IMG/VR virus record: IMGVR_UViG_3300045988_146822
Location: 1 to 51,263 of that record
Source of the DNA: a virus
Length of the DNA: 51,263 nt
Strand: one strand, 5' to 3'
The notes under the pieces were generated by a model. It did no database searches and was not told where the DNA came from. It worked only from the letters and a program-made list of their open reading frames with translations. Below are positions 10,172 to 30,392 of this stretch, one piece after another (the stretch's first letter is position 1; every line of letters starts with the position of its first letter). Made by a program: the position numbers and the translations under genes.

Positions 10172-10173
10172 AA

Positions 10174-11463: not shown

Positions 11464-11549
11464 ATTAAAGTCCTCCTTGACAATTCGCTTAAAATTGTCT
11501 ATCATTTAATTAAGGTATTTTTCTTTGTCCGTTGAGGCTTTGCAGAGCT

Positions 11550-12973: not shown

Positions 12974-12975
12974 TG

Positions 12976-13173: not shown

Positions 13174-13612
13174 ATGTACACCTCCTATTTTTCGTTGGTA
13201 ATTTTGTCTGAAACGATTTCGACTGATTCAACATCAGCAACGCTTGATTCAGTCTATAAGATTTTTGATTCTTTACCTATAGTAGTAGATTTCAAAAATC
13301 AAATAGAAGCCACAAACAAATCAAATAACGGTAATCAAAAATTTGATTTACAGAAAGGAGTTGCAAAACTTACTCCTGTTGGAAAAGCGTTCATTGATGT
13401 TTGTCTTCGTCCTTTGCCCACTTAATCAGATTCATAATTTGAGCGTCGTGCTTATCAAGGTAGCTGTCTATTGTTTTATACAAATGGGCGGCTACTATTT
13501 TTATTGCTAATACTGCTGAAACAAAAGCTGTGCAAAGCATTAGCAGTCCTAAAATTATTATTACTTCCGTCTTTTCTTCACCTCCTAAGCTGATTTCTGC
13601 TGTTCGGCAAAG

Positions 13613-13846
13613 TTAGTTTCTGATAGTTTCTATGAAACAAGAAGGATTGTTAGTTCTTCCTAATAAGTAATCGGTTGAACAATTAAAAATATCAGCTAAA
13701 CTCAAAAGTATATTAATGGGGATATTACCTTTTGTTTGCCAATTATAATAACTTTTACGTTCAATTTTCAACTTATTAGCAAGGTCTTCTTGTGTCATAT
13801 TAGCTCTTGCTCTTTCGGCTTCAATATTTGGATATAAAAACAGCAC
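13613..13846 (-). CDS. Cro-like XRE-family HTH regulator
   Basis: GTG start at 13846 with AAGGAGGTGA 5 nt upstream. The HTH_3 segment reads MTQEDLANKLKIERKSYYNWQTKGNIPINILLSLADIFNCSTDYLLGRT. Confidence 0.75.
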   Translation of the reverse strand: MLFLYPNIEAERARANMTQEDLANKLKIERKSYYNWQTKGNIPINILLSLADIFNCSTDYLLGRTNNPSCFIETIRN

Positions 13847-13875
13847 CAATCTCACCTCCTTTATCGCATCAAGCA

Positions 13876-13928
13876 AAATACTCTTATTGCGTATTTACAA
13901 GCTAATTATATACGCAATAAGAGTATTT
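13876..13928. promoter_or_regulatory. Operator: perfect 18-bp inverted repeat AAATACTCTTATTGCGTA / TACGCAATAAGAGTATTT separated by 17 bp
   Basis: Arms at 13876..13893 and 13911..13928. Further AGAGTATT half-sites occur at 13961..13968 and 14037..14044. Confidence 0.7.
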
Positions 13929-13933
13929 GTCAA
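13905..13933 (-). promoter_or_regulatory. Leftward early promoter (consensus TTGACA-17-TATAAT) for the cro-like operon
   Basis: The minus strand reads TTGACA aatactcttattgcgta TATAAT. The 17-nt spacer is one operator arm. Confidence 0.7.
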
Positions 13934-14017
13934 TATCTTTTACAAGTAAATTACGCACAAAGAGTATTGCAGATTTTTGTGCAATTACACTAATTGAATA
14001 TTATTTTAATTATTCGC

Positions 14018-14046
14018 TTGACATTTTTACTCATTTAGAGTATTGT
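14018..14046 (+). promoter_or_regulatory. Rightward promoter for the CI-like repressor gene
   Basis: TTGACA-17 nt-TATTGT. The half-site TAGAGTATT overlaps the -10. Confidence 0.55.
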
Positions 14047-14084
14047 ATTTATAACAAATAAATCGTTTTATTGGAGGGAAAAAT

Positions 14085-14774
14085 ATGCTTGGAGAAAAAC
14101 TTAGAGAACTTAGAACAGAACTTAATCTTAATATGAAACAAGCTTCCGAAAAATTAGGGATCTCATACACAACTTACGTTGGCTATGAAAAAAATGAAAG
14201 GGAACCAAACTCTGAAACTTTAATCAAATTAGCTGATTTTTATAAATGTTCTGTCGATTATTTAATAGGAAAAACTATAAGACTAAATTTTATTCCACAT
14301 GAAATCGAAGAAGCTGAAATTAAATGCCCTTTGTGTGATTATGATTATGTCCATTTTATTAGAGTTTTATCGGTAAATTTCTCACAAGAAAAAAGTAGCG
14401 GAATGGCTATGGAATTTTTATGCGAGGATGGGCACAAATTTTATATTGTTGTTGAAACATACAAAGGTAATACATATATGGTAAATGTAGATGACAATAA
14501 CAATATTTTAGGGTACACCTCGTTTATTAATAGTAACTCAGACGACAAAACAAACATTCACAAAGAAAAACTAATTACTAACTATGCGGCATTAAATAAT
14601 TTTGGAAAAAATAAACTTCTCGAATATTCAAATGATTTAATATGTAGTGGTAATTACAATAAAGTTTACAAAATAAAAACTGCCGCCCGAGACGGAAGTT
14701 TTAAGGAAACAACCGTTACAGACGACGATTTTAATAAACTTATGGATTTGCCTGATGTTGATGACTTAAAATAA
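14085..14774 (+). CDS. CI-like repressor: N-terminal XRE HTH plus non-peptidase C-terminal domain with a Zn-ribbon-like motif
   Basis: HTH_3 segment reads LNMKQASEKLGISYTTYVGYEKNEREPNSETLIKLADFYKCSVDYLIGKT, followed by CPLCDYDY...CEDGHKF. Divergent from the cro-like gene. Confidence 0.7.
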   Translation: MLGEKLRELRTELNLNMKQASEKLGISYTTYVGYEKNEREPNSETLIKLADFYKCSVDYLIGKTIRLNFIPHEIEEAEIKCPLCDYDYVHFIRVLSVNFSQEKSSGMAMEFLCEDGHKFYIVVETYKGNTYMVNVDDNNNILGYTSFINSNSDDKTNIHKEKLITNYAALNNFGKNKLLEYSNDLICSGNYNKVYKIKTAARDGSFKETTVTDDDFNKLMDLPDVDDLK

Positions 14775-15309
14775 AGTCTTGAAATTTTTTGTAAACTTCC
14801 CGTTCAAGCGGAGCAATTAAAAACTTGTTCCGCTTGTAGAGCTCCTGCATTCGTTGCCAGCGATATTCCGCTGCAGTTTGACTTATATCACAGAGCTGAG
14901 ATATTTCGTCAGCACTTTTGACCTTTAATCCCCACAACACACAAGCCGGAGCAAGTAGCCTGCTTGCAAATACATTTGCTTCCTGTTCAATGGGATTGTC
15001 ATTTGGCGAGATTTCTCGGTTGATAAGTTCATAGCGGCCAACATGGCCAAGCATAATGTGTCCGAGCTCGTGAGCAACGGTAAAGCGTTTCCGCTGTCGG
15101 TTGCAGTCTTGCCGTACAAGTATGATAGGCTGATTGTTAATGACGGTGCATTTACCGTCATTGCCCTGCTCAAACTTATCATAATACTTTACTGCAATGC
15201 CGAGCTTGTAACACAGTTCAACAATATTAACAGGGAGTTCTCGGACGTTTTCTTTTAACAGGATTTCCCACGACATATTTCGGGACTTCTGATACTTTTT
15301 ATAATCCAT
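14740..15309 (-). CDS. ImmA/IrrE-family zinc metallopeptidase
   Basis: HEXXH motif AHELGHIMLGH. Start at 15309 with GAGGTGA upstream. The 3' end overlaps the CI-like gene convergently by 35 nt. Confidence 0.75.
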   Translation of the reverse strand: MDYKKYQKSRNMSWEILLKENVRELPVNIVELCYKLGIAVKYYDKFEQGNDGKCTVINNQPIILVRQDCNRQRKRFTVAHELGHIMLGHVGRYELINREISPNDNPIEQEANVFASRLLAPACVLWGLKVKSADEISQLCDISQTAAEYRWQRMQELYKRNKFLIAPLEREVYKKFQDFILSHQHQANP

Positions 15310-15543
15310 AAAAATCACCTCGTAACTATTATGGATTACAAAAATAAATTTACAGCAATAAAGCAATAACAAAATAAAAAACCGCCCTGCTCGACTGGTA
15401 CTCGAACAGAGCGGAATCACCTACACAGGGTGCAGATGATACGATTAAAACGCAAAATAATTGTATCACACTCCCCTGAATTTTTCAAGTTTTGAATATC
15501 AGGGGATTTTTGCACCCTTTTTTAAGCAAAAGGAGTGTATAAA

Positions 15544-16713
15544 ATGAAAAAACGCAAAGACGGGCGCTATCAGAAGAACATCTATATCGGACGAGATGAA
15601 AACGGTAAACGAAAGTACAAATCCGTATGTGGCACATCACGAAAAGAGGTTGAAACGCTTGCCGCCGAATTAAAACAAAAACTCGGCAAAGGCATAGATA
15701 TCTCATCAGATGATACATACGGATGTTGGAAAAAACGCTGGCTAACGGTTCAGAGGTCACTGCAAACACCACAGCAATACAAAACGCTTGAACGGTATCT
15801 CAAACATTTTGCAGAGCTTGAACCTTACAAAATCAACAAGCTGACAATTGCCGATTTTCAGGAAATCGTGTTCGACTTAGCCGCTAAGAACCCAACAACA
15901 GGCAAACCCACAGCGAAAAAATCGCTGAAAGAGTTCATCGCAACCGCAAGCCGAGTGTTTGAGTATGCTATTGAAAACCGAGCTATCGACTTCAACCCAC
16001 TGAAATATGTCAAAATATCAAAGAATGCGGCAAAGAAAAAAGAACGCAGAGCCTTGTCACCTGAAGAGCAAAAGCTAATAATCAACACTCCGCACAGAGG
16101 AAGATTGCCGGCAATGATTATGTTGCTTGCAGGACTGCGAAGAGGTGAATGTCTCGGCTTGCAATGGGCGGATATTGACTTGAAACGCAACAAAATAAAT
16201 GTTCATCAGACTTTGGTTCTTGACGGAAACAATTCTTACATAAAAGCAGGAGCGAAAACAGAAGCAGGTGTCCGCAAGGTTGATATTCCGACCGTTCTGT
16301 CAGACTATCTGAAAAGCTTTGCACCCCACTCCCCATTTGATTATGTAGTCACAACCACCAAAGGCAAACTTATGACAAATTCAGCGTGGCGGAGATTGTG
16401 GGAGAGCTACATCAATTGCCTAAACCTCGAAGCATTCAATTCACAGCAAGGCAAAATTGTCGGCATTGCTCCACGCAGTAAATACTGCCCCGACGGTATT
16501 CCGCAGGTCATAGAACCGTTTACAGCTCATTGTCTTAGACACACCCACGCAACAAATCTTTTCTATTCGGGCTATGATATTCTCTACATTCAACACCAGT
16601 TAGGGCATACTAAACCCGAAACCACCTTGAACATTTACACGCATTTAATGCAAGATGATACTGAAGCACCTGCGAAAAAACTTGATGATTTTCTCAATCG
16701 TAAAATAAGCTAA
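15544..16713 (+). CDS. int: Tyrosine recombinase, phage integrase (Int1)
   Basis: C-terminal HCLRHTHATNL...LGHTKPETTLNIYTH carries the R-H-R-Y catalytic signature. ATG at 15544 with GGAG 8 nt upstream. Next to the att core. Confidence 0.9.
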   Translation: MKKRKDGRYQKNIYIGRDENGKRKYKSVCGTSRKEVETLAAELKQKLGKGIDISSDDTYGCWKKRWLTVQRSLQTPQQYKTLERYLKHFAELEPYKINKLTIADFQEIVFDLAAKNPTTGKPTAKKSLKEFIATASRVFEYAIENRAIDFNPLKYVKISKNAAKKKERRALSPEEQKLIINTPHRGRLPAMIMLLAGLRRGECLGLQWADIDLKRNKINVHQTLVLDGNNSYIKAGAKTEAGVRKVDIPTVLSDYLKSFAPHSPFDYVVTTTKGKLMTNSAWRRLWESYINCLNLEAFNSQQGKIVGIAPRSKYCPDGIPQVIEPFTAHCLRHTHATNLFYSGYDILYIQHQLGHTKPETTLNIYTHLMQDDTEAPAKKLDDFLNRKIS

Positions 16714-16718
16714 AAAAT

Positions 16719-16741
16719 AAATGCAAGGCAAATGTTAGGCA
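16719..16741 (+). promoter_or_regulatory. Candidate Int1 arm-type sites AAATGCAAGGCA + AAATGTTAGGCA (left arm of phage attP)
   Basis: The same two 12-mers occur in swapped order at 30495..30517. Confidence 0.6.
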
Positions 16742-16792
16742 ACTGAACTTGAAAAGTCCGATAAACACTAAGTTTTTCACACATTTATTAAG

Positions 16793-16840
16793 TGGTTTGG
16801 GACCAAGATGCCGCAGGTTCAAGTCCTGTCACCTCGACCA
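16793..16840 (+). repeat. att core copy 1: 48-bp exact copy of the 3' part of tRNA-Pro (anticodon stem to CCA)
   Basis: tggtttgggaccaagatgccgcaggttcaagtcctgtcacctcgacca is identical to 30345..30392. No tRNA 5' half lies upstream of it here. Confidence 0.95.
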
Positions 16841-16842
16841 AA

Positions 16843-16876
16843 AAAGGTGGTTTTTTAACCGCCTTTTATTTTTTGC
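16843..16876 (+). terminator. Intrinsic terminator just after att core copy 1
   Basis: AAAGGTGG-ttttttaa-CCGCCTTT followed by a T-rich run. Confidence 0.6.
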
Positions 16877-16980
16877 CAAAATTACTTAAAATGCCTTAAA
16901 AGTGGCTTAAACACTGGGTTTTTGAGATTTCAAAAATTCAGTTGAGTAATTTTGAATTAAGTTAAAACAAGATAAAATGC

Positions 16981-17009
16981 AGTCAAACTTACTGTCAAAC
17001 TTACTGTCA
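16981..17009 (+). promoter_or_regulatory. Tandem ACTGTCAAACTT repeats: candidate Int2 arm-type sites
   Basis: agtcaaactt actgtcaaactt actgtca. Partner set ACTGTCC/ACTGTCA/ACTGTCA at 30066..30100. Confidence 0.55.
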
Positions 17010-17213
17010 TTTTAGTTTGCCTGCCGATTTTCAAAGGAACAAGATAATATATTTTAAAATTTTATTACACCGTAGCACAAAGATTTTTTACTATTAAAAT
17101 GGCAAGATGTTAAGCAATCAGAACGCTTACCCTTTTGGTAATTATTTATTATTGATTTAACTTAAAGCATTATGTATAATAGTTTTATAACAATAGATTT
17201 ACAGGGAGTAGTA

Positions 17214-19124
17214 ATGAATACAGTAAATGAAATTAAATATTTTATAACACAAAAGGAAGATAATGGTGCTCTTCTATTAACAGGAAAATGGGGCTGTGGA
17301 AAAACTTACTTAGCTAATCAAGTAATCAGCGAGCTTAACCAAGGAAACGATTTTATTGCAGTTTCCATATCATTATTTGGCGTTGATTCAATTGAGTTGC
17401 TACATAAAGAAATTAAAAACAAGGTGTTTTTTAGCAGAGGATTTGAAAAGGCACATAAAAAGGGCAAGAATGTATTTTCTAAAATAAAGAATTTTTCAAA
17501 TAACACAACTGCAATTTTAGGTGAAACTTTTCAAATTGCCAAAAGTATTAACAAGGCTCTTAATATTCGTTGGCAAGATTTTTTTAATGTTGAAAAATAC
17601 ATATACTGTTATAAAACTAATTTTGAAACAACCAATTGCCATAATAAAAACACTGAAAAAGGTAAAAAATTCATCAAAAAAAGATTGGTCTTATTCTTCG
17701 ATGATTTTGAACGCTCTAAACTTGATAGAATTGAGTTAATGGGTGTAATCAATGAATATTCTGAAAACAGAGGAATAAAAGTAATTATTATTGCAGACGA
17801 AGAGAAAATAGCAAGTAATAAAGCTGATAAAAATAATTCCGATACTAACCATCAAATAGATAACACTAACAATACAAACCTCAGTACAACCGATAGCAAT
17901 TTTAACTATTCTGATTTTAAAGAAAAACTTATATCTCGAACATTAAAAATTGAACCCGATTATAAAACTGTAATAGATACTATCCTAAGTTCTTACCAAG
18001 AAATAGTTATAGGCTACAAAGATTTTCTTATAGATAACAAGGATATTATTTATCAGATATATATTGAAAGTGATTCAAATAATTTCCGTTCAGTAAAAGC
18101 CTTTATTATAGATTATGAACGATTACATGAAGCTTGGCAAAATTCAAACATTTCCAGTGAAAATGAACCAAGTATGTTTTACAATTTCGGTGCTATGACA
18201 TTTGGAGTTAAAATGGGTTATTATAAAAAAGGAAAACACGGACTGCTATTATCATCCAGTGACTTAATGCAAAAATTTCTAAAATGGAATAATACATATA
18301 ATTTTAAAGCTTGTCAGGATTGGATTTTAAACAATGTATGGAGTAAAGAAAATTTTATATCTGAAATTAACAAAACATTCAAAGTACAATCATATACAGC
18401 AGATGAAAAATTTATGTATTTTAATCTTTGGGATTTGGAACAAAAGGATATAGAAAACGGTTTACCAAAAGTAATAGAAAATGCTTATAATGGAAAATTA
18501 ACAAGAGATCAACTTATTAATTTATTACAAAAAATTCATTATTTAAAAATATCCTCACTTTCTTTACCTTGCGATGTTGACTATTCAAAAATTGAAAGTG
18601 GTTTTGAAATTAGAAAAAAATGGATACTTGACTTTAAAACAATTGAGCCTAAAAGGCAAACTTTTTCTGAAAAATCTCAAATTGACGAAGAAGCATATTC
18701 TTTGTATGAAAACATTGAAAAATTTGATTCAATGATGTATGCTTTAGAACCTAGAATGGAATTTAAAAAATATCTTGAATCAACTGATAGTAAAAACACC
18801 TACGATTTTAGACACAAGCCCATAGGATGTTTTGATAAAAATCTCATGGAAATGTTTTGTCAAAAATATTTACAATCAAACAATGCTAGTAAAAGAGGAA
18901 TGTGTTTTACTTTTCTCGATATAGATTTTCGTGATAATGAATATTCAGATCATGATGTAAAAGAAACAATAGCGAATCTGAGAGAATTACAAAACAGACT
19001 AAATAACTCTGAACAAAACAAAAAAGACTGCATTACTGCTGCAATCAATAAATCGTTTTATGATAAAATTGATTCTAAAATTTCAGAAATTGAACAGTTT
19101 TATAATTCTATTAAAAACAGCTAA
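17214..19124 (+). CDS. KAP-family P-loop NTPase
   Basis: Walker A in the KAP form G-x-W-G-x-GKT (LLLTGKWGCGKTYL). Walker B is LVLFFDDFERS. AGGGAG RBS before the ATG at 17214. Visibly AT-rich. Confidence 0.7.
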   Translation: MNTVNEIKYFITQKEDNGALLLTGKWGCGKTYLANQVISELNQGNDFIAVSISLFGVDSIELLHKEIKNKVFFSRGFEKAHKKGKNVFSKIKNFSNNTTAILGETFQIAKSINKALNIRWQDFFNVEKYIYCYKTNFETTNCHNKNTEKGKKFIKKRLVLFFDDFERSKLDRIELMGVINEYSENRGIKVIIIADEEKIASNKADKNNSDTNHQIDNTNNTNLSTTDSNFNYSDFKEKLISRTLKIEPDYKTVIDTILSSYQEIVIGYKDFLIDNKDIIYQIYIESDSNNFRSVKAFIIDYERLHEAWQNSNISSENEPSMFYNFGAMTFGVKMGYYKKGKHGLLLSSSDLMQKFLKWNNTYNFKACQDWILNNVWSKENFISEINKTFKVQSYTADEKFMYFNLWDLEQKDIENGLPKVIENAYNGKLTRDQLINLLQKIHYLKISSLSLPCDVDYSKIESGFEIRKKWILDFKTIEPKRQTFSEKSQIDEEAYSLYENIEKFDSMMYALEPRMEFKKYLESTDSKNTYDFRHKPIGCFDKNLMEMFCQKYLQSNNASKRGMCFTFLDIDFRDNEYSDHDVKETIANLRELQNRLNNSEQNKKDCITAAINKSFYDKIDSKISEIEQFYNSIKNS

Positions 19125-19335
19125 TATAAAAAGAGGACTCGGTTTTGGAGCAGTCGAAGCAAGATGTTATTACTGATTTTTTAGTGTTATTTAACATATT
19201 ATATTTACTTTATAGAACAATAATTTGTACAAAATAACATTAAACAACACATAGTAACACTAACCGAAAGAAGAAATTTCGGATAATTTTTAGAAAATTT
19301 TTAGAAAGATTTTAGAGAACGCAACATCTATCAAC

Positions 19336-19449
19336 TTATTGCTTGTACAATAAACCTACACTACATCTTAATACATCAGAAGTGTCTTTATCAATACAGT
19401 AAACACTTCTATGTTCAAGTCTTGCCTTTTTAATATCTCTGATTTTCAT
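19336..19449 (-). CDS. Small ORF (37 aa), hypothetical
   Basis: MKIRDIKKARLEHRSVYCIDKDTSDVLRCSVGLLYKQ. Its ATG overlaps the upstream stop (TAATG). Below the ORF-track cutoff. Confidence 0.3.
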   Translation of the reverse strand: MKIRDIKKARLEHRSVYCIDKDTSDVLRCSVGLLYKQ

Positions 19450-19676
19450 TAGAATACCTCCTTTAAGTCCTGTATAATCTTTCTTCTTAGGGTTGGGGTT
19501 ATTGCTATACCTATCAGGTGAGATTCTACTGTCGTTAAAGAAATTTCTTCATCCTTGATTGCTTTTGATAATACCCTTATGTATTTATTATAGTCAGGGT
19601 GCTTTACCGCTTCCTCGGCTGATAGGTGAAAAATATTCTTCAAACTCTCATCACCTACAAAACTACATATTGTCAT
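19449..19676 (-). CDS. Hypothetical protein (75 aa)
   Basis: ORF from the track, in the IME cargo region. Confidence 0.4.
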   Translation of the reverse strand: MTICSFVGDESLKNIFHLSAEEAVKHPDYNKYIRVLSKAIKDEEISLTTVESHLIGIAITPTLRRKIIQDLKEVF

Positions 19677-19717
19677 CTTAATACCTCTTTTCTATTTTAA
19701 ATATGATTGCTTTTCTA

Positions 19718-19798
19718 TTAAAAAGTGTACCACATATAAATCACAACCAGTAAACCTACTACTACTGAACAGATAAATAGTAGTACTCCAATATCCAT
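19718..19798 (-). CDS. 26-aa hydrophobic peptide ORF
   Basis: MDIGVLLFICSVVVGLLVVIYMWYTF is a single predicted TM helix. GGAAAGG lies 11 nt upstream. Confidence 0.25.
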   Translation of the reverse strand: MDIGVLLFICSVVVGLLVVIYMWYTF

Positions 19799-19894
19799 AT
19801 ACTCTACAACCTTTCCTTTTATTTTATTATATTATACCATATATTATAATTAAATTGAATACTTTCTTTAGTATAATATTTATTTTTAACATAG

Positions 19895-19922
19895 AAAAAG
19901 AGGGTTCATAAAGAACCCTCTC
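19895..19922 (-). terminator. Intrinsic terminator after the sigma-factor gene
   Basis: GAGGGTTC-ataaa-GAACCCTC followed by T5 on the minus strand. Confidence 0.7.
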
Positions 19923-19967
19923 TTCCCAATAATTATTTTAAGGATTTACTCTTGCTATCAAATTTAA

Positions 19968-21608
19968 TCATCTGTACTCATAGTGACCGCCGTCTTTGAC
20001 TTTCTCGTCATAGGCTTCTTTCCAATAGCCGTCTTCTACTGTTTTGGTTCCTGTTTTTACATACTCTTTCTCATAATGATATGCCCCTGCTCCATTTTCT
20101 CTTGCTTCCCAAAGAAGATGTTCTCTTCTCAGGTTAGCATCTGTTAACTTCATACCGCAATTATTACATACATTGTATCCTACCCATCCATATACATCTT
20201 CTTCGTGAGTACCTGTTACAATCCACTCTCTTTCGTGGTGTACTGTTTTATAATCATCTACCCATACCTTCTGCTTTGGCTTTTCTGTAGTTGTTACAGT
20301 ACTTGAAGAAGTGCTTGGCTTAGCTGGCTTCTGATTATTACTTGAAGAGTTGCTTGGCTTCGCTGGCTTCTGATTATTACTTGAAGAGTTGCTTGGCTTA
20401 GCTGGCTTCTTGTCGTTATCAGATGTATTTGTCTTTGAAGAGTTGTCTTTCTTTGAAGATGTATTTGACTTTGTATCTTCTTTCTTTTCGGTGTTACCCT
20501 TGTTGCTGTTGTTTTTGTTAGATACTGTAGTTTTTACATCGTCAACCTTAACTGTAACTGTCTTACCGTCATCGGTTTTTACTTCTACCTTGCCGTCTTT
20601 TACTTCGACTTTCTTACCATTCTTATCAGTGATGTTGCCGTCTTTGTCGACTTTGATTTCACCCTTGTCTACCAAATCTTTAACTGCCTTTGGTACTGTT
20701 ACTGCAGGAACTGTAGTTGCCTGTGCAGTGGTCTGAGCAGAAGTTGTTGCGGTCGGAACTTTGTCACTTTTACAACCTGCAAGAAGACTTGTGCCGACTG
20801 TTGTGCCTGCAAAAAGTAAGGTCATACCGCAAGCCATAGCTATGACTTTTGTCTTAACCGCTGTAACTGCACCTGTCTTAACCGCAGTTGCGGTACTCGT
20901 TTTTACCGCTGTTGAAACACCCTTTGAAGCCGCAGTTACAAGGCTTTCTCCGTTTGGAAGTGTGATTTTTATGCTCGGAACGCAAAGGCTCTTTGCCTGC
21001 TCTCTGAAAATTGTTGTAAAGAACGGCACAAATACAACACCGTGAAGCTTGTCACCGCTTTTGTTTTCGTAATCTTCAATTGCAGTTTTCATCTTTGCCC
21101 TTGAATAATTGAGCCTTGAAAGCACAGTACCCCTTGAACATTCAAAGACTTCTGCGATTTCATCAACAGTCATTTCATTAAAATAGTGCATAATCACTGT
21201 CTGATACTGAACATCGGACAGTACTTCCTGCATAATCGAAAGAATAATTTCTCTCTTTGCCTTGTCTGAAATGTATTCTTCGGGAATTGATATACGCTCG
21301 TCAACTATTGCCTGATTTTCAAAAATTTCATCGTCCAGTTGGATTTCACCTTTACCTTTCAAATAATTTTTGCACTTATTAACGGCAATTCTGTTAAGCC
21401 AACTTCTGATTTGTGATGATTTTTCCAAAGATTGGATTTTTAAAAAAGCCGTTATGTAAGTTTCCTGCATAATGTCCTGTGCGGTTGTTTCGTTCTTTAA
21501 AAAGCTGATACAAGTAAACCACACTTCACGCTCTGTAAGCTTGTAGAGCTTTTCAAATGATTTGTTATCTCCCTTCTTAATTTTTTCTACTAAGTGGGAA
21601 ATGTTCAT
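19968..21608 (-). CDS. ECF-type sigma-70 factor fused to a TM segment and a repeat-rich extracytoplasmic domain
   Basis: Region 2 reads DIMQETYITAF...SWLNRIAVNKCKNYLK. Region 4 reads MTVDEIAEVFECSRGTVLSRLNYSRAKMK. A hydrophobic stretch (VIAMACGMTLLFAGTTVGTSLLAGC) follows, then K/T/S-rich repeats and a C-terminal Cys-containing domain. GAGGAGG RBS at start 21608. Confidence 0.75.
   Translation of the reverse strand: MNISHLVEKIKKGDNKSFEKLYKLTEREVWFTCISFLKNETTAQDIMQETYITAFLKIQSLEKSSQIRSWLNRIAVNKCKNYLKGKGEIQLDDEIFENQAIVDERISIPEEYISDKAKREIILSIMQEVLSDVQYQTVIMHYFNEMTVDEIAEVFECSRGTVLSRLNYSRAKMKTAIEDYENKSGDKLHGVVFVPFFTTIFREQAKSLCVPSIKITLPNGESLVTAASKGVSTAVKTSTATAVKTGAVTAVKTKVIAMACGMTLLFAGTTVGTSLLAGCKSDKVPTATTSAQTTAQATTVPAVTVPKAVKDLVDKGEIKVDKDGNITDKNGKKVEVKDGKVEVKTDDGKTVTVKVDDVKTTVSNKNNSNKGNTEKKEDTKSNTSSKKDNSSKTNTSDNDKKPAKPSNSSSNNQKPAKPSNSSSNNQKPAKPSTSSSTVTTTEKPKQKVWVDDYKTVHHEREWIVTGTHEEDVYGWVGYNVCNNCGMKLTDANLRREHLLWEARENGAGAYHYEKEYVKTGTKTVEDGYWKEAYDEKVKDGGHYEYR
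20313..20411. repeat. 39-bp tandem repeat, about 2.5 copies, inside the sigma-fusion gene
   Basis: gcttggcttagctggcttctgattattacttgaagagtt repeated. It encodes NSSSNNQKPAKPS units. Confidence 0.85.
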
Positions 21609-22018
21609 AAAATAACCTCCTCTCATTTCCTTTCATAATATAGACAATTTAAAACGGCTTTTGATTTTATAAAATCGAAAAATTTTTCAAATTTTTTCAA
21701 AAAAGCAAATATTTTTCGCATAAAACAAAAAGTGCGTAGCTGAAGCTACGCACGAAAAATACATAGCTTTGATTGTTGCGACACAATATTTCACTTATAA
21801 GGTGTGAAAAGTAAAGCCTGTATTTTTACCGAAATAAAAATACACACTTAGGTGAACTTAAAATTAAATTTTTGTTTGGCATTTTTATTTTAGCATACAA
21901 TATGTGAAAATTCAATATTTTTGTAAAATAACTTTCAAAAATTATATGAATGAAACTGTAAAATTTGAAGTAATTTCAATTTTAGGGGGAACAACTTTTC
22001 AGCTGTTCCCCTTTTTTG

Positions 22019-22507: not shown

Positions 22508-22559
22508 AATGGTTTCTCCTTTGAAAGTTAATTTCAATTAAACTTTATATTCGGTAATT

Positions 22560-23032: not shown

Positions 23033-23788
23033 ATGAATAAAAAATCTTTTAGGGTGGTACTGCTCACCTATTTTGCAGTAGCTTTTTTCGTAATTATGGC
23101 TTTCGGCTCTGAATATCTTTCAGAGTGCAACAAACTCGGAATACCGTTTTCTTTGTCAGGAGCAGTAAGTTATTTGCTGACAGGGTTTATCTGCCTAATT
23201 GCAATGACTGTTTTGGTTGTGGTTTTCTTGTTGGTATTGGAATTGAGCGACAGAAAATCTATCAAATCCGCTCTTCGCTTAACAGCTAATTTTGCTTCAA
23301 ACAAAGCAAGAATGAAAGTTGTAAACAGCGTTTATCCGAGCTTACTTTACTTTTTGTATGATGTATTACAGAGCAACAACGAGTTTTTAAAACTTCCGCT
23401 TGGTAAAGATTGCAGTTCTCTCTTAAAAGAGGGGTACAATCCACTATGTGTTGACAACTGTATTTTTTACACCTTTCAGATTATTATGCCAAAAAAATCA
23501 TATGACTTTGATGAAGATACATTAAAGCAAATTATCCAATCGTATATTGAAGCTCAATTGCTTAATTACGGCATGGTTAATTTACCCTCATACTACAACA
23601 GCAAATCCTACGGTATGATACCGAGCGTATATATTGAAAAGGTTGTATATAACGAGGAACAGCATTTACTAAAATTTGCCGTGATGTATATTAGCTGTGA
23701 AGATGATGTAAGGCATTATATCAAATCCAAAAAGAGAGATGAACAGCTGAATATAACAACAGATAAGGTGTATGACGATGAGGTTTGA
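23033..23788 (+). CDS. Membrane protein, hypothetical
   Basis: Two N-terminal hydrophobic helices. GAAGGAGG RBS. 251 aa. Confidence 0.6.
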   Translation: MNKKSFRVVLLTYFAVAFFVIMAFGSEYLSECNKLGIPFSLSGAVSYLLTGFICLIAMTVLVVVFLLVLELSDRKSIKSALRLTANFASNKARMKVVNSVYPSLLYFLYDVLQSNNEFLKLPLGKDCSSLLKEGYNPLCVDNCIFYTFQIIMPKKSYDFDEDTLKQIIQSYIEAQLLNYGMVNLPSYYNSKSYGMIPSVYIEKVVYNEEQHLLKFAVMYISCEDDVRHYIKSKKRDEQLNITTDKVYDDEV

Positions 23789-24500
23789 TAGCAGTAAATT
23801 AACTGTCGGTGTAGATTTATCTATTCTTTCACAGGGTGTAAAAGTGCCTGTTACGGTGGACTTTTCCTCTGTACCTCATATGCTGATAGTAGCACCAAGC
23901 GGAAGCGGTAAAACTTATCTTCTAACATACATATTAGGTCAAATAGCAAAGAAGTCTGTCAAATTGATTTTGGCAGACTTTAAAGGCATTGACTTTATTG
24001 AGTTTAATGACTGTCGGAATTACTATAAGCATAATTCTGTCGGTGAAGCTGTTGACTGTGTTTTTGATGAATTACAAAACAGAATGGCAAATGCAAGTGT
24101 AAATTCAGAATATGAACCGATTTATTTATGTATTGATGAGTGGTCAGGTTTCCTCAGTTCTTTAGCCGTAAAGAAAGAGCAGGATCACTACAAGCAAAAA
24201 CTTGCCAACATTCTTATGTTAGGTCGAGGTGCAAATATTTTTATCATTATGTCACTACAAAGAGCCGATTCAACATATATTACAGGACGAGATAACTTTG
24301 GCAATGTGGTAGGTCTTGGTACGCTCAGCAAAGAGAGTATAGCAATGGTATTTAATGATAATAAGGAGATGATAGAACCAAAATCAAGGGGCAAAGGATA
24401 TCTGCAAACTGACGGAAAGCCTTTGAGAGAAATAGTTGTGCCTATGTTACGAAACATAAACGATACAAAAGCCGTTATAAAAACAGCTTTATCCCGATAA
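23772..24500 (+). CDS. FtsK/SpoIIIE-family DNA translocase-like ATPase (coupling-protein type)
   Basis: Walker A is VAPSGSGKTYL and Walker B is IYLCIDEWSG. 242 aa. Confidence 0.7.
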   Translation: MTMRFDSSKLTVGVDLSILSQGVKVPVTVDFSSVPHMLIVAPSGSGKTYLLTYILGQIAKKSVKLILADFKGIDFIEFNDCRNYYKHNSVGEAVDCVFDELQNRMANASVNSEYEPIYLCIDEWSGFLSSLAVKKEQDHYKQKLANILMLGRGANIFIIMSLQRADSTYITGRDNFGNVVGLGTLSKESIAMVFNDNKEMIEPKSRGKGYLQTDGKPLREIVVPMLRNINDTKAVIKTALSR

Positions 24501-28176: not shown

Positions 28177-28601
28177 ATGATGAGAAAAAGAATATGTGTG
28201 ATGAAGATGATTCCGATGAAATTCTCGAATATACAGGCGGTAGCGAGCTTAGCGATTTAACCTTTCAGACGGGTTATGAGAACTATTCGCAATGGCGAAT
28301 AAAAGAGATTCTAAAAGAAGTTGGTTTTAGATTAGAGCCTCTATATGTAGGATACAAAGCTCTTCGATACCGTCCGTGTCAGAGGTATTGGGTAGTAAAT
28401 ATCCTCACAGGAGAAAGAGTAGGCAATTCATACAACGGTTTTAGTTTTGAGGATTTGAGATATGTACTTGCAAGATGTGGATATTCATTGCATAGTCAAC
28501 ATTATAATCCCACCAGAGATAAGGACGGCAGACGCACTTCTTGTAAGGAGTTTCTTGAGCTTGTAGAAAGCCTTCCTGATGAAAAGGAGGACTTAATATG
28601 A
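28173..28601 (+). CDS. Hypothetical acidic protein
   Basis: ATGA overlap with the upstream ORF. 142 aa. Confidence 0.5.
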   Translation: MNDEKKNMCDEDDSDEILEYTGGSELSDLTFQTGYENYSQWRIKEILKEVGFRLEPLYVGYKALRYRPCQRYWVVNILTGERVGNSYNGFSFEDLRYVLARCGYSLHSQHYNPTRDKDGRRTSCKEFLELVESLPDEKEDLI

Positions 28602-28774
28602 GTGTAGAGATTAAATTCATCGGTACTAAAGAGGTTGCCGAAGCACTCGGTTGTTCCTTGCCTACTGCACGCAATATTATGTTGAGAGCAGATTTCCCTT
28701 TAATACGGGTAGGTAAAAATCTTAAAGTTGAGCTAAATGCTTTTCTTAACTGGTCGCAGAAAAGAAGGGTATGA
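28598..28774 (+). CDS. xis: Excisionase-family HTH protein (Xis of the nested element)
   Basis: 58 aa, below the ORF-track cutoff: MSVEIKFIGTKEVAEALGCSLPTARNIMLRADFPLIRVGKNLKVELNAFLNWSQKRRV. GGAGG RBS. Directly upstream of Int2. Confidence 0.65.
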   Translation: MSVEIKFIGTKEVAEALGCSLPTARNIMLRADFPLIRVGKNLKVELNAFLNWSQKRRV

Positions 28775-28840: not shown

Positions 28841-28884
28841 ACTGATATAGTAAAAATCTTTTGTGCTTTACGGTTTGGAAAGGA

Positions 28885-30066
28885 ATGGTTTTTATTAACA
28901 CAAAAAGCACAAAACCTAAGTCTAAATGTAATAAACTTGATTACGGTGACGGTTCTGTATACTATGTTAAAAGCAGAAAATGCTTTGCAGGTCAGATAAC
29001 GCTTGAAATTAACGGTGAAAAAAAACGCAAGACGGCTTACGGTAAAACCGAACGCATTGTTAAGAATAAGTTGTTTGAATATCGTATTCAGGCAAAAGCA
29101 GGATTTTTTGACGAACCCGATAACACAACTGTCTATGAGCTTGCCGAAAAGATGATTGAAGAACAATTCTCTCTTAATGAGATTAAGCAAACTTCATATG
29201 ACCGCAAGAATGAAACCTTAAAGTCAATGAGTCCTATTTATGATTTAGCAATGCGTGAGATTACGGAAGATGTAATAAAGCATTTTTTCATTTCTAAAAT
29301 CTCTTATTCGCAGTCATACTTGGATAAAGCATATCAGCTTTTAAAGTCAGTTTTCAATGAAGCTGTAAGGAAGAAAATTGTTACAGAAAACATTATGCTG
29401 AACATCAGAAAGCCAAAGTCAAAGCAGGAGCTTGTAAAAGTAAGAGCATTGACTGTTGATGAACAGAAAAAGCTGATAGATGTTCTCAAAAGCGAGGATA
29501 TACGCTATTCGGAACAAATGCTTTTGTCAATGTTTACAGGCATGCGTATGGGCGAAAGTAACGCCTTAGAGGTAGGAGATATAAACTTTAATGACCGTAC
29601 AATTAGAGTTTGTAAAACTGTCAGCAGAGGTCTTAACGGTAAAACATATATAAGTAATTCCACAAAGACTAAAGCAGGTATGCGTACAATCTATTTTAAT
29701 GATGATATGGCTGATTTTTTAAAACAGTGTATCGGAGATAAAAAAGACGGTCTTATATTTGCTTCAAGTGTGGATAAACTTGTCACAACTAATCAGGTAA
29801 ATTATCAATACGCAAACACGCTGAAAAAGTATGATATACTTGATAAGAGTGTTTACGGAAAGGTTGATTTACATTCACTTCGTCACACATATGCAACAAG
29901 ATGTATTGAATCAGGTATGCCTGCAAAGGTACTGCAAAATCTTCTCGGTCATACTGATATAAGAATTACGCTTGATACATACTGTGATGTTTTCCAAAAA
30001 TACAGTATGGAAAATCTTGCTGTAGCTGACAGCTATATGAAGAGCAATAACATTGCAATAGTATGA
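28885..30066 (+). CDS. int: Tyrosine recombinase (Int2 of the nested element)
   Basis: HSLRHTYATRCIESG...LLGHTDIRITLDTYCDV carries the catalytic signature. The start is uncertain (28861 TTG or 28885 ATG). Confidence 0.85.
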   Translation: MVFINTKSTKPKSKCNKLDYGDGSVYYVKSRKCFAGQITLEINGEKKRKTAYGKTERIVKNKLFEYRIQAKAGFFDEPDNTTVYELAEKMIEEQFSLNEIKQTSYDRKNETLKSMSPIYDLAMREITEDVIKHFFISKISYSQSYLDKAYQLLKSVFNEAVRKKIVTENIMLNIRKPKSKQELVKVRALTVDEQKKLIDVLKSEDIRYSEQMLLSMFTGMRMGESNALEVGDINFNDRTIRVCKTVSRGLNGKTYISNSTKTKAGMRTIYFNDDMADFLKQCIGDKKDGLIFASSVDKLVTTNQVNYQYANTLKKYDILDKSVYGKVDLHSLRHTYATRCIESGMPAKVLQNLLGHTDIRITLDTYCDVFQKYSMENLAVADSYMKSNNIAIV

Positions 30067-30100
30067 CTGTCCGAAAATGCACTGTCAACTTTACTGTCAC
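30066..30100 (+). promoter_or_regulatory. ACTGTCC / ACTGTCA / ACTGTCA repeats: candidate Int2 arm-type sites (int-proximal arm)
   Basis: gactgtccgaaaatgcactgtcaactttactgtcac. Same motif as 16981..17009. Confidence 0.55.
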
Positions 30101-30147
30101 ACCATAAAAAGCCGATAAATAAGCCACTTGTCAGGGTTACCTGCACC

Positions 30148-30183
30148 AACAGCCGTTTCTTATTGTAGGGACGGCTGTTTTGT
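30148..30183 (+). terminator. Intrinsic terminator after Int2
   Basis: AACAGCCGT-ttcttattgtaggg-ACGGCTGTT followed by TTTG. Confidence 0.65.
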
Positions 30184-30257
30184 ATCGCATTGTCGGTCTG
30201 TTTTATGGTGATTTTCAAAATATTTGAATTAATTTTGAATAAAAAGCGAAAATCATG

Positions 30258-30286
30258 TTGACAAATCCGAAAATATGGTATATAAT
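30258..30286 (+). promoter_or_regulatory. Consensus promoter TTGACA-17-TATAAT driving the tRNA gene
   Basis: ttgaca aatccgaaaatatggta tataat, about 30 nt upstream of the tRNA 5' end. Confidence 0.7.
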
Positions 30287-30315
30287 AATCAAGCTGTTGT
30301 TATTAAACAACATTT

Positions 30316-30392
30316 CGAGGTGTAGCTCAGTTTGGTAGAGTGCTTGGTTTGGGACCAAGATGCCGCAGGTTCAAGTCCTGTCACCTCGACCA
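30316..30392 (+). tRNA. tRNA-Pro (anticodon UGG), complete with encoded CCA
   Basis: Manual cloverleaf: acceptor CGAGGTG/CACCTCG, D arm GCTC..GAGT, anticodon arm CTTGG-TTTGGGA-CCAAG, T arm GCAGG-TTCAAGT-CCTGT, then A73 and CCA. 77 nt. Confidence 0.9.
30345..30392 (+). repeat. att core copy 2 (3' 48 nt of the tRNA-Pro gene)
   Basis: Identical to 16793..16840. Confidence 0.95.

What the first reader, a model, noticed from the sequence alone, without database searches (positions are those of the whole stretch)
16884..17009. A second, different repeat set marks the att arms of the nested element
ACTGTCA-type repeats occur at 16981..17009 (agtcaaactt actgtcaaactt actgtca) and at 30066..30100 (ACTGTCC, ACTGTCA, ACTGTCA).

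Both sides also share two further modules:
- GATTTCAAAAAT-like: 16925..16937 versus 30211..30225.
- TTTGAATTA: 16951..16959 versus 30223..30231.

Three CTTAAA(A)-type units lie in tandem at about 16884..16915.

These motifs sit on the element side of each core copy. In the predicted 13.55-kb circle they would surround the tRNA-Pro gene. That fits Int2/Xis binding sites and a large attP that contains a whole tRNA gene.
Basis: seen in the sequence. Interest (0 to 1): 0.65.

Follow-up and report, generated by a model that had tools for sequence, protein, structure and literature searches.

The report
Integrase arm sites, wrongly assigned core
The ACTGTCA repeats are real and are most likely docking sites for the integrase of a small mobilizable island of Ruminococcus bromii, but that island recombines at the tip of a tRNA-Leu gene, does not carry the tRNA-Pro gene, and the "nested 13.55-kb element" is a join of two different island copies.

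Summary
Observation confirmed; interpretation only partly.

**What holds**
- The 19-nt unit ACTGTCAAACTTACTGTCA occurs only at 16979-17009 and 30081-30099 (3 hits, 0.03 expected).
- Relatives of Int2 share one att layout, each with its own repeat, which tracks the integrase N-terminal domain.
- The repeats are therefore very probably Int2 arm-type sites.

**What fails**
- TTTGAATTA and GATTTCAAAAAT-like matches are at chance level. Their right-hand copies lie in chromosomal spacer DNA.
- Int2's core is the 13-nt GTTACCTGCACCA at 30136-30148, the 3' end of tRNA-Leu(CAG).
- Intact copies in long chromosomal contigs are bounded by tRNA-Leu(CAG) and this repeat, with tRNA-Pro outside.
- The 48-nt tRNA-Pro repeats are the att core of the 37.7-kb prophage (Int1).

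**What the window is**
- 16841 to about 21919 is 100% identical to a truncated island remnant fixed downstream of tRNA-Pro.
- About 21861 to 30148 is the intact island at tRNA-Leu.
- They join in a 59-nt shared block, just above the 55-nt end overlap. The "circle" is probably an assembly join or a homologous-recombination product.

This is a new member of a known kind: an MobT/TcpA mobilizable element in tandem accretion.

The parts
16979..17009 (+). P'-arm arm-type repeats: GCAGTCAAACTT, ACTGTCAAACTT, ACTGTCA (2.5 units of 12 nt), 141-169 nt right of the core end. They belong to the truncated island remnant (b) downstream of tRNA-Pro.
   Evidence: The same repeats lie at +141..+169 next to tRNA-Leu(CAG) in intact islands. 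Copy number is 1.5 or 2.5 units among relatives.
30066..30099 (+). P-arm arm-type repeats ACTGTCC (overlapping the int2 stop codon), ACTGTCA and ACTGTCA. They lie 82 to 49 nt left of the core end.
   Evidence: They are identical in 26 viral-contig loci and 36 metagenome loci. L035, with a 77% identical integrase, keeps ACTTACTGTCAAACTTACTGTCA but has a different core.
30136..30148 (+). Int2 core GTTACCTGCACCA, a 13-nt copy of the 3' end of tRNA-Leu(CAG). It is the right boundary (attR) of the intact island.
   Evidence: Homology breaks here in L003, L006, L009, L011, L021 and L033. The core aligns with the tRNA 3'-end copies of 10 relatives. It forms the direct repeat with tRNA-Leu(CAG) in L283, L284 and L287.
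16900..16909 (+). AAGTGGCTTA module in the P' arm. It is an inverted copy of 30120-30129 and includes the third CTTAAA unit.
   Evidence: only 2 hits in the window, 0.07 expected. It lies in the family-conserved module CCAGTRTTYAAGCC.
30120..30129 (-). AAGTGGCTTA module (read as TAAGCCACTT on the + strand) in the P arm, 28-19 nt left of the core end.
16841..16915 (+). Proximal P' arm: a terminator hairpin directly after the tRNA end, then the CTTAAA(A) units at 16885, 16895 and 16906.
   Evidence: The hairpin and the first CTYAAA unit are invariant in six P' arms of different elements.
28861..30066 (+). int2, a tyrosine integrase. The likely start is the ATG at 28885.
   Evidence: PF00589, E=2e-26. 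The 393-aa product is identical in long R. bromii-type contigs. The model shows a three-strand sheet plus helix at residues 25-71. The best fold matches are Tn1549 Int and full-length lambda Int.
28598..28774 (+). Candidate excisionase (58 aa, helix-turn-helix) directly upstream of int2.
   Evidence: PF12728 HTH_17, E=5e-4, below Pfam's cut-off. phrog_668, E=5e-4. Its position is as in IME class 1 (PMC5357655).
26250..27545 (+). MobT-type relaxase (Rep_trans).
   Evidence: PF02486, 52.7 bits against a cut-off of 29.6.
23772..24500 (+). FtsK/TcpA-like coupling protein.
   Evidence: PF01580, 26.5 bits against a cut-off of 24; phrog_1358.
21861..21919 (.). The join between remnant (b) on the left and intact island (a) on the right: a 59-nt block identical in both.
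   Evidence: The window has 0 mismatches to (b) up to 21919 and 0 mismatches to (a) from 21861.
16841..21919 (.). Truncated island remnant (b): P' arm, KAP NTPase, a 75-aa ORF and a sigma factor. In chromosomes it lies directly downstream of tRNA-Pro and is followed by housekeeping genes.
   Evidence: L276, L279 and L281 match window 16793-21954 at 99.8-100%; HAD hydrolase, Wzy, Fur and rubrerythrin genes follow.
30149..30315 (+). Chromosomal spacer between tRNA-Leu(CAG) and tRNA-Pro. It holds a terminator hairpin and a TTGACA-17-TATAAT promoter (30258-30286).
   Evidence: It follows an intact tRNA-Leu(CAG) directly in L245, L259, L270, L271 and L273, with no island. The upstream chromosomal DNA is the same in all.
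30316..30392 (+). tRNA-Pro(TGG), a chromosomal gene. It is attL of the prophage.
16793..16840 (+). 48-nt copy of the tRNA-Pro 3' half: the prophage attR core, not Int2's.
   Evidence: It is preceded by Int1 and its arm in 50 loci.
15535..16713 (+). int1, the integrase of the 37.7-kb prophage. Candidate arm repeats ATGCAAGGCA and ATGTTAGGCA lie at 16721-16741 and 30487-30507.
   Evidence: Int1 is 26% identical to Int2. Phage genes are shown.

Best explanation
The ACTGTCA(A)ACTT direct repeats are arm-type binding sites for the N-terminal domain of Int2.

**The element**
- Int2 is the tyrosine integrase of an 11.4-13.8-kb integrative mobilizable element (IME) of Ruminococcus bromii.
- The IME carries a TcpA-like coupling protein, an MobT relaxase, a small Xis-like protein and Int.

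**The predicted attP**
- In the excised circle, three repeats sit just after the int2 stop codon (P arm).
- Two to three repeats sit 141-169 nt beyond the core (P' arm).
- Together they would flank a 13-nt core, GTTACCTGCACCA.
- Int2 would bridge arms and core, as lambda Int and Tn916-family integrases do.
- It would recombine the core with the identical 3' end of tRNA-Leu(CAG).

**What the window holds**
- The P arm and core (30066-30148) belong to an intact IME at tRNA-Leu.
- The P' arm (16841-17009) belongs to a truncated sister IME that sits downstream of the neighbouring tRNA-Pro.
- A 37.7-kb prophage (Int1, with a 48-nt tRNA-Pro core) is inserted between them.
- The contig closes into a circle through a 59-nt block that the two IME copies share.

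**Shown and inferred**
- Shown: motif statistics, element boundaries, the family layout, covariation, the chimera.
- Inferred: binding of Int2 to the repeats, excision activity, and how the circle arose.
For: 1. **Enrichment.** The 19-nt unit occurs only in the two clusters: 3 hits against 0.03 expected.
2. **Boundaries.**
   - In L283, L284 and L287, which lie in 48-104-kb contigs with the identical Int2, the IME is bounded on the left by a full tRNA-Leu(CAG) ending GTTACCTGCACCA|gtaaaggtgg.
   - It is bounded on the right by GGTTACCTGCACCA|acagccg.
   - ACTGTCA repeats lie at both ends.
   - The empty site, tRNA-Leu|acagccg...tRNA-Pro, exists in 5 loci with the same upstream chromosome.
3. 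**Family layout.** Ten or more relatives (38-84% N-domain identity) share this order:
   - two direct repeats 10-12 bp apart, 0-65 nt after the stop codon;
   - a conserved spacer module;
   - a 12-18-nt copy of a tRNA 3' end, ending 80-126 nt after the stop;
   - on the other side, where the left end is in hand (L027, L049, L060, L076), a terminator, a conserved spacer and the same repeat at +118 to +205.
4. **Covariation.**
   - The repeat differs by element: GGTTGCACAC, GGTAGCACAC, GTGGCAACC, AATTACCAC, TACGACC.
   - L035 has the same repeat: its N-domain is 84% identical and the rest 77%.
   - Int3 has a different repeat: its N-domain is 34% identical and the rest 59%.
5. **Integrase build.** The Int2 model has a three-strand sheet plus helix at residues 25-71. 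It aligns over 356-375 columns with full-length lambda Int, and best with Tn1549 Int.
6. **Chimera.**
   - The window is 100% identical to the remnant up to 21919.
   - It is 100% identical to the intact IME from 21861.
   - The other copy is only 51-94% identical, or unrelated, on each side.
Against: - No binding or recombination experiment exists.
- No excised attP junction (P2-core-P'2) was found. The one candidate, L208, is a tandem with an Int3-type IME.
- No Pfam arm-binding family matches the Int2 N-terminus.
- The Xis assignment is below Pfam's threshold.
- The P' arm in the window abuts a tRNA-Pro-type end (TCACCTCGACCA, 10 of 13 identical to the core). How that sister IME got there is unexplained.
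- The close relatives are too similar for their conservation to say much by itself.
- The circle could be a real molecule, since the contig's end overlap lies in phage DNA and not at the 59-nt block.
Confidence: 0.78

Rival explanations
1. A discrete 13.55-kb element is nested in the prophage. Int2 recombines the two 48-nt tRNA-Pro copies. Its large attP contains the whole tRNA-Pro gene, flanked by the repeats.
For: - The 48-nt repeats bracket the segment, and Int2 lies just upstream of tRNA-Pro.
- Junctions reading Int2-P2-core-spacer-tRNA-Pro|P'2 are frequent in metagenome contigs (9 of 19). One 13.4-kb contig, L235, nearly cycles.
Against: - The 48-nt copy at 16793 is contiguous with Int1 and its arm in 50 loci.
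- Intact Int2 elements are bounded by tRNA-Leu(CAG) and a 13-nt repeat, with tRNA-Pro outside.
- The spacer plus tRNA-Pro exists without the element.
- No relative among 44 genome loci has a tRNA directly after int.
- The frequent junction is explained by an intact IME at tRNA-Leu followed by a remnant at tRNA-Pro, as seen in single long contigs.
- The window's segment is a chimera of the two.
Confidence: 0.04
2. The ACTGTCA repeats are real, conserved protein-binding sites, but not for the integrase. Candidates are the Xis-like protein, the island's HTH regulator, or the relaxase (oriT or iterons).
For: - Nothing here shows which protein binds.
- Other conserved modules in the arms (AAGTGGCTTA, CTYAAA) must also bind something.
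Against: - The repeat type tracks the integrase N-terminal domain, not the rest of the element. L035 has the same repeat with a different core and host. Int3 has 59% identity in the catalytic part but 34% in the N-domain, and a different repeat.
- The repeats sit on both sides of the core, in direct orientation, 10-12 bp apart, as arm-type sites do.
- The oriT of MobT elements is normally next to the relaxase gene (own knowledge).
Confidence: 0.1
3. The repeats are chance matches in AT-rich, low-complexity intergenic DNA.
For: - The arms are AT-rich: 27% and 35% G+C against 39% for the window.
- Loose 7-mer cluster tests find 20 other 7-mers with two clusters.
- TTTGAATTA and GATTTCAAAAAT-like matches are at chance level.
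Against: - The 19-nt unit gives 3 hits against 0.03 expected, and 0 of 100 shuffles reach this.
- The same layout recurs with other motifs in more than 10 relatives.
Confidence: 0.02
4. The 51.2-kb circle is a real molecule holding the prophage, IME parts, the chromosomal spacer and tRNA-Pro. It could form by homologous recombination between the two IME copies, or by Int2 acting on non-cognate sites. It would then carry IME genes and a tRNA gene along with the phage.
For: - The 55-nt end overlap lies in phage DNA, not at the repeat.
- A second contig, 127542 (48.3 kb), closes the same way with a 99-nt overlap.
- Other IME-plus-phage cycles are seen (contig 164796).
Against: - The join lies in a 59-nt shared block only 4 nt longer than the apparent k-mer of 55.
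- The 99-nt overlap of contig 127542 lies in the sigma-factor gene, a gene family present in both the intact island and the remnant.
- Long contigs show the linear chromosomal order.
- 51 kb is 36% more than the phage genome.
Confidence: 0.15

Closest known systems
Arm-type sites of heterobivalent tyrosine integrases (lambda Int P1/P2/P'1-3; Tn916/Tn1549 Int)
   Same: - Short direct repeats lie on both sides of a separate core and differ from the core sequence.
- The integrase has an N-terminal three-strand-sheet domain plus core-binding and catalytic domains.
- A small helix-turn-helix protein is encoded next to int.
   Different: - Binding was not tested.
- The P arm starts inside the stop codon of int.
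- The P' arm begins with a terminator hairpin that replaces the tRNA's own terminator.
- The repeats are 12-nt tandem units whose copy number varies.
IME class 1 of Firmicutes (tyrosine integrase + MobT/PF02486 relaxase + TcpA coupling protein; Coluzzi et al. 2017, PMC5357655)
   Same: - The gene set and order are coupling protein, relaxase, excisionase, integrase.
- Integration is at the 3' end of a conserved gene.
- It is found in tandem accretion with other elements and with decayed copies.
   Different: - The host is a gut Clostridia species (R. bromii), not a streptococcus.
- The target is tRNA-Leu(CAG).
- The cargo is a KAP NTPase and an ECF-type sigma factor.
- Mobilization was not tested.
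Tandem accretion and cis-mobilizable remnants at one att site (ICESt1/ICESt3 and CIMEs of Streptococcus thermophilus; cited in PMC5357655 as Pavlovic 2004 and Bellanger 2011)
   Same: Several elements with related or unrelated integrases are stacked at one hot spot. A truncated element keeps an att arm but has no integrase.
   Different: - Here two adjacent tRNA genes, whose 3' ends are 25 of 28 identical, form a double hot spot 244 nt apart.
- Temperate phages take part in it.
Temperate phages integrating into the 3' half of a tRNA gene
   Same: The window's prophage has Int1, a 48-nt copy of the tRNA-Pro 3' half and its own arm repeats.
   Different: This describes the other integrase of the window, not the finding's repeats.

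Membership tests
Heterobivalent (arm-binding) tyrosine integrase system | Tyrosine recombinase catalytic domain | tested here: met
   PF00589, E=2e-26, 93 bits against a cut-off of 27. Invariant R221, H330, R333, H356 and Y366 in 51 homologues.
Heterobivalent (arm-binding) tyrosine integrase system | Separate N-terminal arm-binding domain | tested here: met
   The AlphaFold model (pLDDT 70-85 in this region) has strands 25-28, 33-42 and 45-53 and helix 56-71. It aligns over 356-375 columns with full-length lambda Int 1z1b. No Pfam arm-domain family matches, so the evidence is fold only.
Heterobivalent (arm-binding) tyrosine integrase system | Repeated arm sites on both sides of the core, unlike the core sequence | tested here: met
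   three sites 82-49 nt left of the core end, and 2.5 sites 141-169 nt right of it.
Heterobivalent (arm-binding) tyrosine integrase system | Arm motif changes with the integrase N-domain across relatives | tested here: met
Heterobivalent (arm-binding) tyrosine integrase system | Integrase binds the arm sites; the sites are needed for recombination | not testable with these tools
   This needs band-shift or footprinting assays and mutant att sites.
Heterobivalent (arm-binding) tyrosine integrase system | Excisionase (recombination directionality factor) | tested here: inconclusive
   The 58-aa ORF at 28598-28774 matches PF12728 HTH_17 with E=5e-4 and 20.6 bits, below the cut-off of 27.
IME class 1 (MobT + TcpA + tyrosine Int) | PF02486 relaxase | tested here: met
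   52.7 bits against a cut-off of 29.6.
IME class 1 (MobT + TcpA + tyrosine Int) | FtsK-like (TcpA) coupling protein upstream of the relaxase | tested here: met
   PF01580, 26.5 bits against a cut-off of 24; the gene order is 23772-24500 and then 26250-27545.
IME class 1 (MobT + TcpA + tyrosine Int) | No conjugation pore genes of its own | tested here: met
   All ORFs of the 11-14-kb element are listed. None has a VirB4 or T4SS family hit.
IME class 1 (MobT + TcpA + tyrosine Int) | Bounded by att direct repeats, with occupied and empty sites in a population | tested here: met
   Occupied sites are L283, L284 and L287. Empty sites are L245, L259, L270, L271 and L273.
IME class 1 (MobT + TcpA + tyrosine Int) | Excises and is mobilized by a conjugative element | not testable with these tools
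   No attP junction was found. Mating experiments are needed.
   tRNA-Pro lies outside the 13-nt repeats of intact copies. It is present with its spacer where the element is absent.

The most novel reading that the evidence does not exclude
The att regions of this integrase family may be a conserved scaffold into which two cassettes are swapped independently: the arm repeat, together with the integrase N-domain, and the 12-18-nt tRNA-end core.

At the tRNA-Leu(CAG)/tRNA-Pro double hot spot, the 3' ends are 25 of 28 identical. There, a remnant P' arm next to tRNA-Pro could let Int2 (or homologous recombination) excise composite circles that carry tRNA-Pro, a whole prophage and IME genes.

On this reading the 51-kb circle is real, and phage replication or packaging would spread IME parts.
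Probability: 0.12. Interest if true: 0.55.

Novelty: new member of a known kind. Interest (0 to 1): 0.3.

Why it matters
- It corrects the map of this window. The integrase, core, target tRNA and element limits all differ from what the raw sequence suggests. The apparent circular phage with a nested island is probably a chromosomal array joined at a short repeat.
- That is a caution for viral-contig catalogues that call such contigs complete circular genomes.
- It gives a testable set of arm sites, a core and a target gene for an abundant mobilizable element of R. bromii, a keystone starch degrader of the human gut.
- It shows a family-wide att layout in which arm motif and integrase N-domain change together. 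That layout could be used to predict att sites of uncharacterized integrases.

Tried and rejected
- **Public phage records.** A reconstructed empty prophage attP matched only tRNA-Pro genes.
- **Loose cluster test.** A test for any 7-mer with two clusters is not specific: 20 such 7-mers occur in the real window against 3 in shuffles. I replaced it with the 19-nt unit test.
- **IME carrying the spacer and tRNA-Pro in its P' arm.** I considered this at length. I rejected it after long contigs showed the intact IME at tRNA-Leu and a separate remnant at tRNA-Pro.
- **L208 as an excised attP.** The junction Int2-core|gtaaaggtgg looked like one, but it continues into an Int3-type arm with AATTACCAC repeats.
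- **L186 and L187 as intact prophage attP.** L187 is only a contig that starts inside the repeat. L186 extends just 29 nt beyond the core.
- **Int3 element.** I first took it for a phage. It is an IME of about 11 kb of the same family.
- **Exact-protein look-up with the TTG start of int2.** It found nothing. The ATG start at 28885 worked.
- **Conservation among close relatives.** It is uninformative because they are more than 90% identical.
- **How the sister IME reached tRNA-Pro.** I could not explain this. Its junction reads ACCA|aa, against ACCA|gt at tRNA-Leu.
- **R. bromii ATCC 27255.** Its arrangement, with tRNA-Pro inverted 2.2 kb away, also remains unexplained.
Full report
**1. Observation**

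| Motif | Positions |
|---|---|
| ACTGTCA (with the variant GCAGTCA at 16979) | 16991, 17003 |
| ACTGTCC, then ACTGTCA twice | 30066; 30081, 30093 |
| GATTTCAAAAAT and GATTTTCAAAAT | 16926; 30210 |
| TTTGAATTA | 16951, 30223 |
| CTTAAA(A) | 16885, 16895, 16906 |

They are not equally meaningful.

| Pattern | Hits | Expected | Shuffles reaching this |
|---|---|---|---|
| ACTGTCAAACTTACTGTCA, up to 3 mismatches | 3, all in the two clusters | 0.03 | 0 of 100 |
| TTTGAATTA | 4 | 2.46 | 23 of 100 |
| GATTTCAAAAAT, up to 2 mismatches | 35 | 23 | 1 of 100 |
| CTTAAAANNNCTTAAA, up to 1 mismatch | 2 | 0.52 | 11 of 100 |

**2. What the window is**

- The first and last 55 nt are identical, so the contig is a 51,208-nt circle as assembled.
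- Positions 30393-51208 plus 1-16792 hold a complete temperate siphovirus-type phage. It encodes terminase, portal, major head protein, tape measure, primase, helicase and repressor, and the integrase Int1 at 15535-16713.
- One tRNA-Pro(TGG) lies at 30316-30392. Its 3' 48 nt recur at 16793-16840.
- The 13.55 kb between the two copies encodes these proteins:
  - a KAP NTPase;
  - an ECF-type sigma factor with a long tail;
  - a DnaJ-domain protein;
  - an FtsK/TcpA-like ATPase;
  - an HTH regulator;
  - a Rep_trans (MobT) relaxase;
  - a 58-aa HTH protein;
  - Int2.
- That is the gene set and order of class-1 integrative mobilizable elements, or IMEs (PMC5357655).
- The host is Ruminococcus bromii. 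Strain ATCC 27255 carries Int2 at 99% identity.

**3. Where Int2's core really is**

Three lines of evidence agree.

(a) Homology breaks at one exact point.
- In 5 of the viral-contig loci that carry Int2, and in R. bromii ATCC 27255, homology to the window stops exactly at 30148 (...GGTTACCTGCACCA|). Other DNA follows.
- In an unbiased metagenome scan, 36 loci show at least six different right flanks after that point.

(b) The sequence is a tRNA end.
- GTTACCTGCACCA is the 3' end of a tRNA-Leu(CAG).
- That gene is followed in the chromosome by window 30149-30315 and then tRNA-Pro. Five loci have this arrangement with no IME, and the same upstream chromosomal DNA.
- So 30149-30392 is native chromosome, not part of any attP.

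(c) Intact copies are bounded by it.
- The loci are L283, L284 and L287, from 48-104-kb contigs that encode the identical Int2.
- There the IME (11,376 or 13,804 nt) lies between a full tRNA-Leu(CAG) ending ...GTTACCTGCACCA|gtaaaggtgg and ...GGTTACCTGCACCA|acagccg.
- Chromosomal genes lie on the left. The spacer and tRNA-Pro lie on the right.
- ACTGTCA repeats sit at both ends. AGTCAAACTTACTGTCAAACTTACTGTCA lies at +141..+169 from the left core. ACTGTCC, ACTGTCA and ACTGTCA lie 82-49 nt before the right core end.

**4. The 48-nt repeats belong to the phage**

- The copy at 16793-16840 is contiguous with Int1 and its arm in 50 loci.
- The prophage has its own repeat set. ATGCAAGGCA and ATGTTAGGCA lie at 16721-16741 and, in swapped order, at 30487-30507.
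- Int1 and Int2 are only 26% identical.

**5. Are the ACTGTCA repeats arm-type sites?**

Comparison with distant relatives says yes.

- *Shared layout.* In L049 (tRNA-Pro GGG) and in L060 and L076 (tRNA-Leu TAG) the layout is the same.
  - On the left: the tRNA, a terminator hairpin, a spacer of about 100 nt, then 2-3 direct repeats at +118 to +205.
  - On the right: the int stop codon, two copies of the same repeat, a spacer with a conserved module, and a 14-18-nt copy of the tRNA end.
- *Different repeats.* The repeat is GGTTGCACAC, GTGGCAACC or GGTAGCACAC in these three. Further relatives show stop-proximal tandem pairs 10-12 bp apart with other sequences still.
- *Int3 element.* Int3 is 55% identical to Int2. 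Its element has AATTACCAC on both arms and a tRNA-Pro-type core.
- *Alignments.* Alignments of six P' arms and eleven P arms place the repeats, the modules and the tRNA-end cores in the same columns. Int2's GGTTACCTGCACCA aligns with the tRNA-end copies of the others.
- *Motif tracks the N-domain.*
  - L035 keeps ACTTACTGTCAAACTTACTGTCA with a different core. Its N-domain is 84% identical to Int2's, and the rest 77%.
  - Int3 has a different repeat. Its N-domain is 34% identical, and the rest 59%.
- *Integrase build.* The AlphaFold model of Int2 (51-sequence alignment, mean pLDDT 81) has a three-strand sheet plus helix at residues 25-71. Core-binding and catalytic domains follow. The best structural matches are Tn1549 integrase and full-length lambda integrase, the latter over 356-375 aligned columns.

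I therefore take the repeats to be Int2 arm-type sites. This is an inference; binding was not tested.

**6. The other modules**

- The right-hand copies of GATTTTCAAAAT and TTTGAATTA (30210-30231) lie in the chromosomal tRNA-Leu/tRNA-Pro spacer, just upstream of the tRNA-Pro promoter (TTGACA 30258-30263, TATAAT 30281-30286). They are at chance level, so they are not att modules of Int2.
- The left-hand stretch 16921-16975 is homologous among P' arms of the family. It may bind an accessory factor.
- The first CTTAAA unit corresponds to an invariant CTYAAA after the terminator in six P' arms.
- The third unit is part of AAGTGGCTTA. Its inverted partner in the P arm sits in the family module CCAGTRTTYAAGCC.
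- These are candidate sites for the Xis-like protein or a host bending protein. This is inference.

**7. The "nested element" is a chimera**

- In L276, L279 and L281 the order on one contig is as follows:
  - a P' arm (93% identical to the window's);
  - a KAP-less IME matching window 20010-30392 at 94.6%;
  - Int2, its core, the spacer and tRNA-Pro;
  - window 16793-21954 at 99.8-100%;
  - housekeeping genes (HAD hydrolase, Wzy, deacetylase, Fur, rubrerythrin).
- So window 16841 to about 21919 is a truncated IME remnant fixed downstream of tRNA-Pro. It holds a P' arm, the KAP NTPase, a 75-aa ORF and a sigma factor, with no integrase and no right core.
- The identity profile confirms the switch.
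  - The window equals the remnant with no mismatch up to 21919. It is only 51-94% identical to the intact IME there.
  - From 21861 it equals the intact IME with no mismatch. The remnant's flank is unrelated there.
- The shared exact block is 59 nt, four more than the 55-nt end overlap that suggests k=55.
- The chromosomal order is therefore: tRNA-Leu | intact IME | spacer and tRNA-Pro | prophage | IME remnant | chromosome.
- The phage lies between two IME-family pieces rather than hosting a nested element.
- The circle is most simply an assembly join or a homologous-recombination product.
- A second "circular" contig, 127542, closes with a 99-nt overlap inside the sigma-factor gene, a gene present in diverged form in both the intact island and the remnant.
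- I cannot exclude that the circle is real (about 15%).

**8. Context: a double hot spot**

- tRNA-Leu(CAG) and tRNA-Pro(TGG) lie 167 nt apart. Their 3' ends are 25 of 28 identical.
- At least five kinds of element stack there:
  - the Int1 phage;
  - a second phage with GTAGCTAACA arms and the same 13-nt core as Int2;
  - the Int2 IME;
  - the Int3 IME;
  - other islands carrying defence genes.
- Such tandem accretion with decayed copies is described for streptococcal IMEs (PMC5357655).

**9. Limits**

- No excised attP junction was found. L208 is a tandem.
- It is unexplained how an element with a tRNA-Leu-type core left a remnant at tRNA-Pro. The junction reads ACCA|aa there, against ACCA|gt at tRNA-Leu.
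- The few bases right after ACCA vary among junctions. This may mark the crossover region and tolerance of mismatches, as in Tn916-family integrases (own knowledge). I did not test this.

**10. Verdict**

- The arm-site reading is supported.
- The core, the attP content and the "nested element" are not supported.
- This is a new member of a known kind, of modest interest.

Noticed in passing
window 1-55 and 51209-51263; 21861-21919: The contig is circular by a 55-nt end overlap. It contains a join between two diverged island copies inside a 59-nt shared block. It is thus a likely false 'complete circular viral genome'.
   Followed up: yes
window 16721-16741 and 30487-30507: ATGCAAGGCA and ATGTTAGGCA occur as adjacent pairs, in swapped order, after the int1 stop codon and about 95 nt beyond tRNA-Pro. 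They are candidate arm-type sites of the prophage integrase Int1.
   Followed up: partly
window 22938-22991 and 25690-25743: A 54-nt direct repeat (98% identical, with a TATATAAT box) brackets the segment encoding the 251-aa membrane protein, the FtsK-like protein and the HTH regulator. In many related loci homology to the window breaks near 22900-22933 and resumes at 26121. This looks like a swappable cassette.
   Followed up: no
window 20300-20416: Three tandem 39-nt repeats lie inside the sigma-factor gene. They encode a repeated Ser/Asn/Lys/Pro-rich stretch in its long C-terminal tail. The two sigma copies (intact island and remnant) are only about 65% identical.
   Followed up: no
window 17119-19808: The KAP NTPase module is present or absent among otherwise similar islands. 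Most relatives jump from 17118 to 19349 or 19809. L287 has an intact island with the module.
   Followed up: partly
L137 and 26 other loci; window 30136-30392: tRNA-Leu(CAG) and tRNA-Pro(TGG) lie 167 nt apart, and their 3' ends are 25 of 28 identical. Together they form a double integration hot spot used by at least two phages and two IME types.
   Followed up: yes
junctions in L014, L033, L206-L241: The 1-6 bases right after ...ACCA vary between junctions that are otherwise identical (aa, gt, ac, cc, an extra t, or a short deletion). This may mark the strand-exchange region and tolerance of heterology.
   Followed up: no
L033 9735-12100 (R. bromii ATCC 27255): The island's right flank is a different terminator followed by TTTGTGCGCTAT twice. 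tRNA-Pro lies 2.2 kb away on the opposite strand with its native terminator and a surface-protein gene. TGTGTCAGTTA occurs twice upstream of its promoter. The strain has a rearranged locus.
   Followed up: partly
L286 15115-18923; L285 and L288: Further islands stacked at tRNA-Leu, left of the IME, carry another integrase (345 aa) and defence-type genes (ThsB-TIR, SLATT, Abi_alpha).
   Followed up: no
window 30393-30462: The first 70 nt after tRNA-Pro, which look like the phage's left arm, are also the native chromosomal terminator of tRNA-Pro in loci without this phage (L033, L027). Phage-chromosome identity therefore spans about 118 nt, and the exact phage boundary is uncertain.
   Followed up: partly
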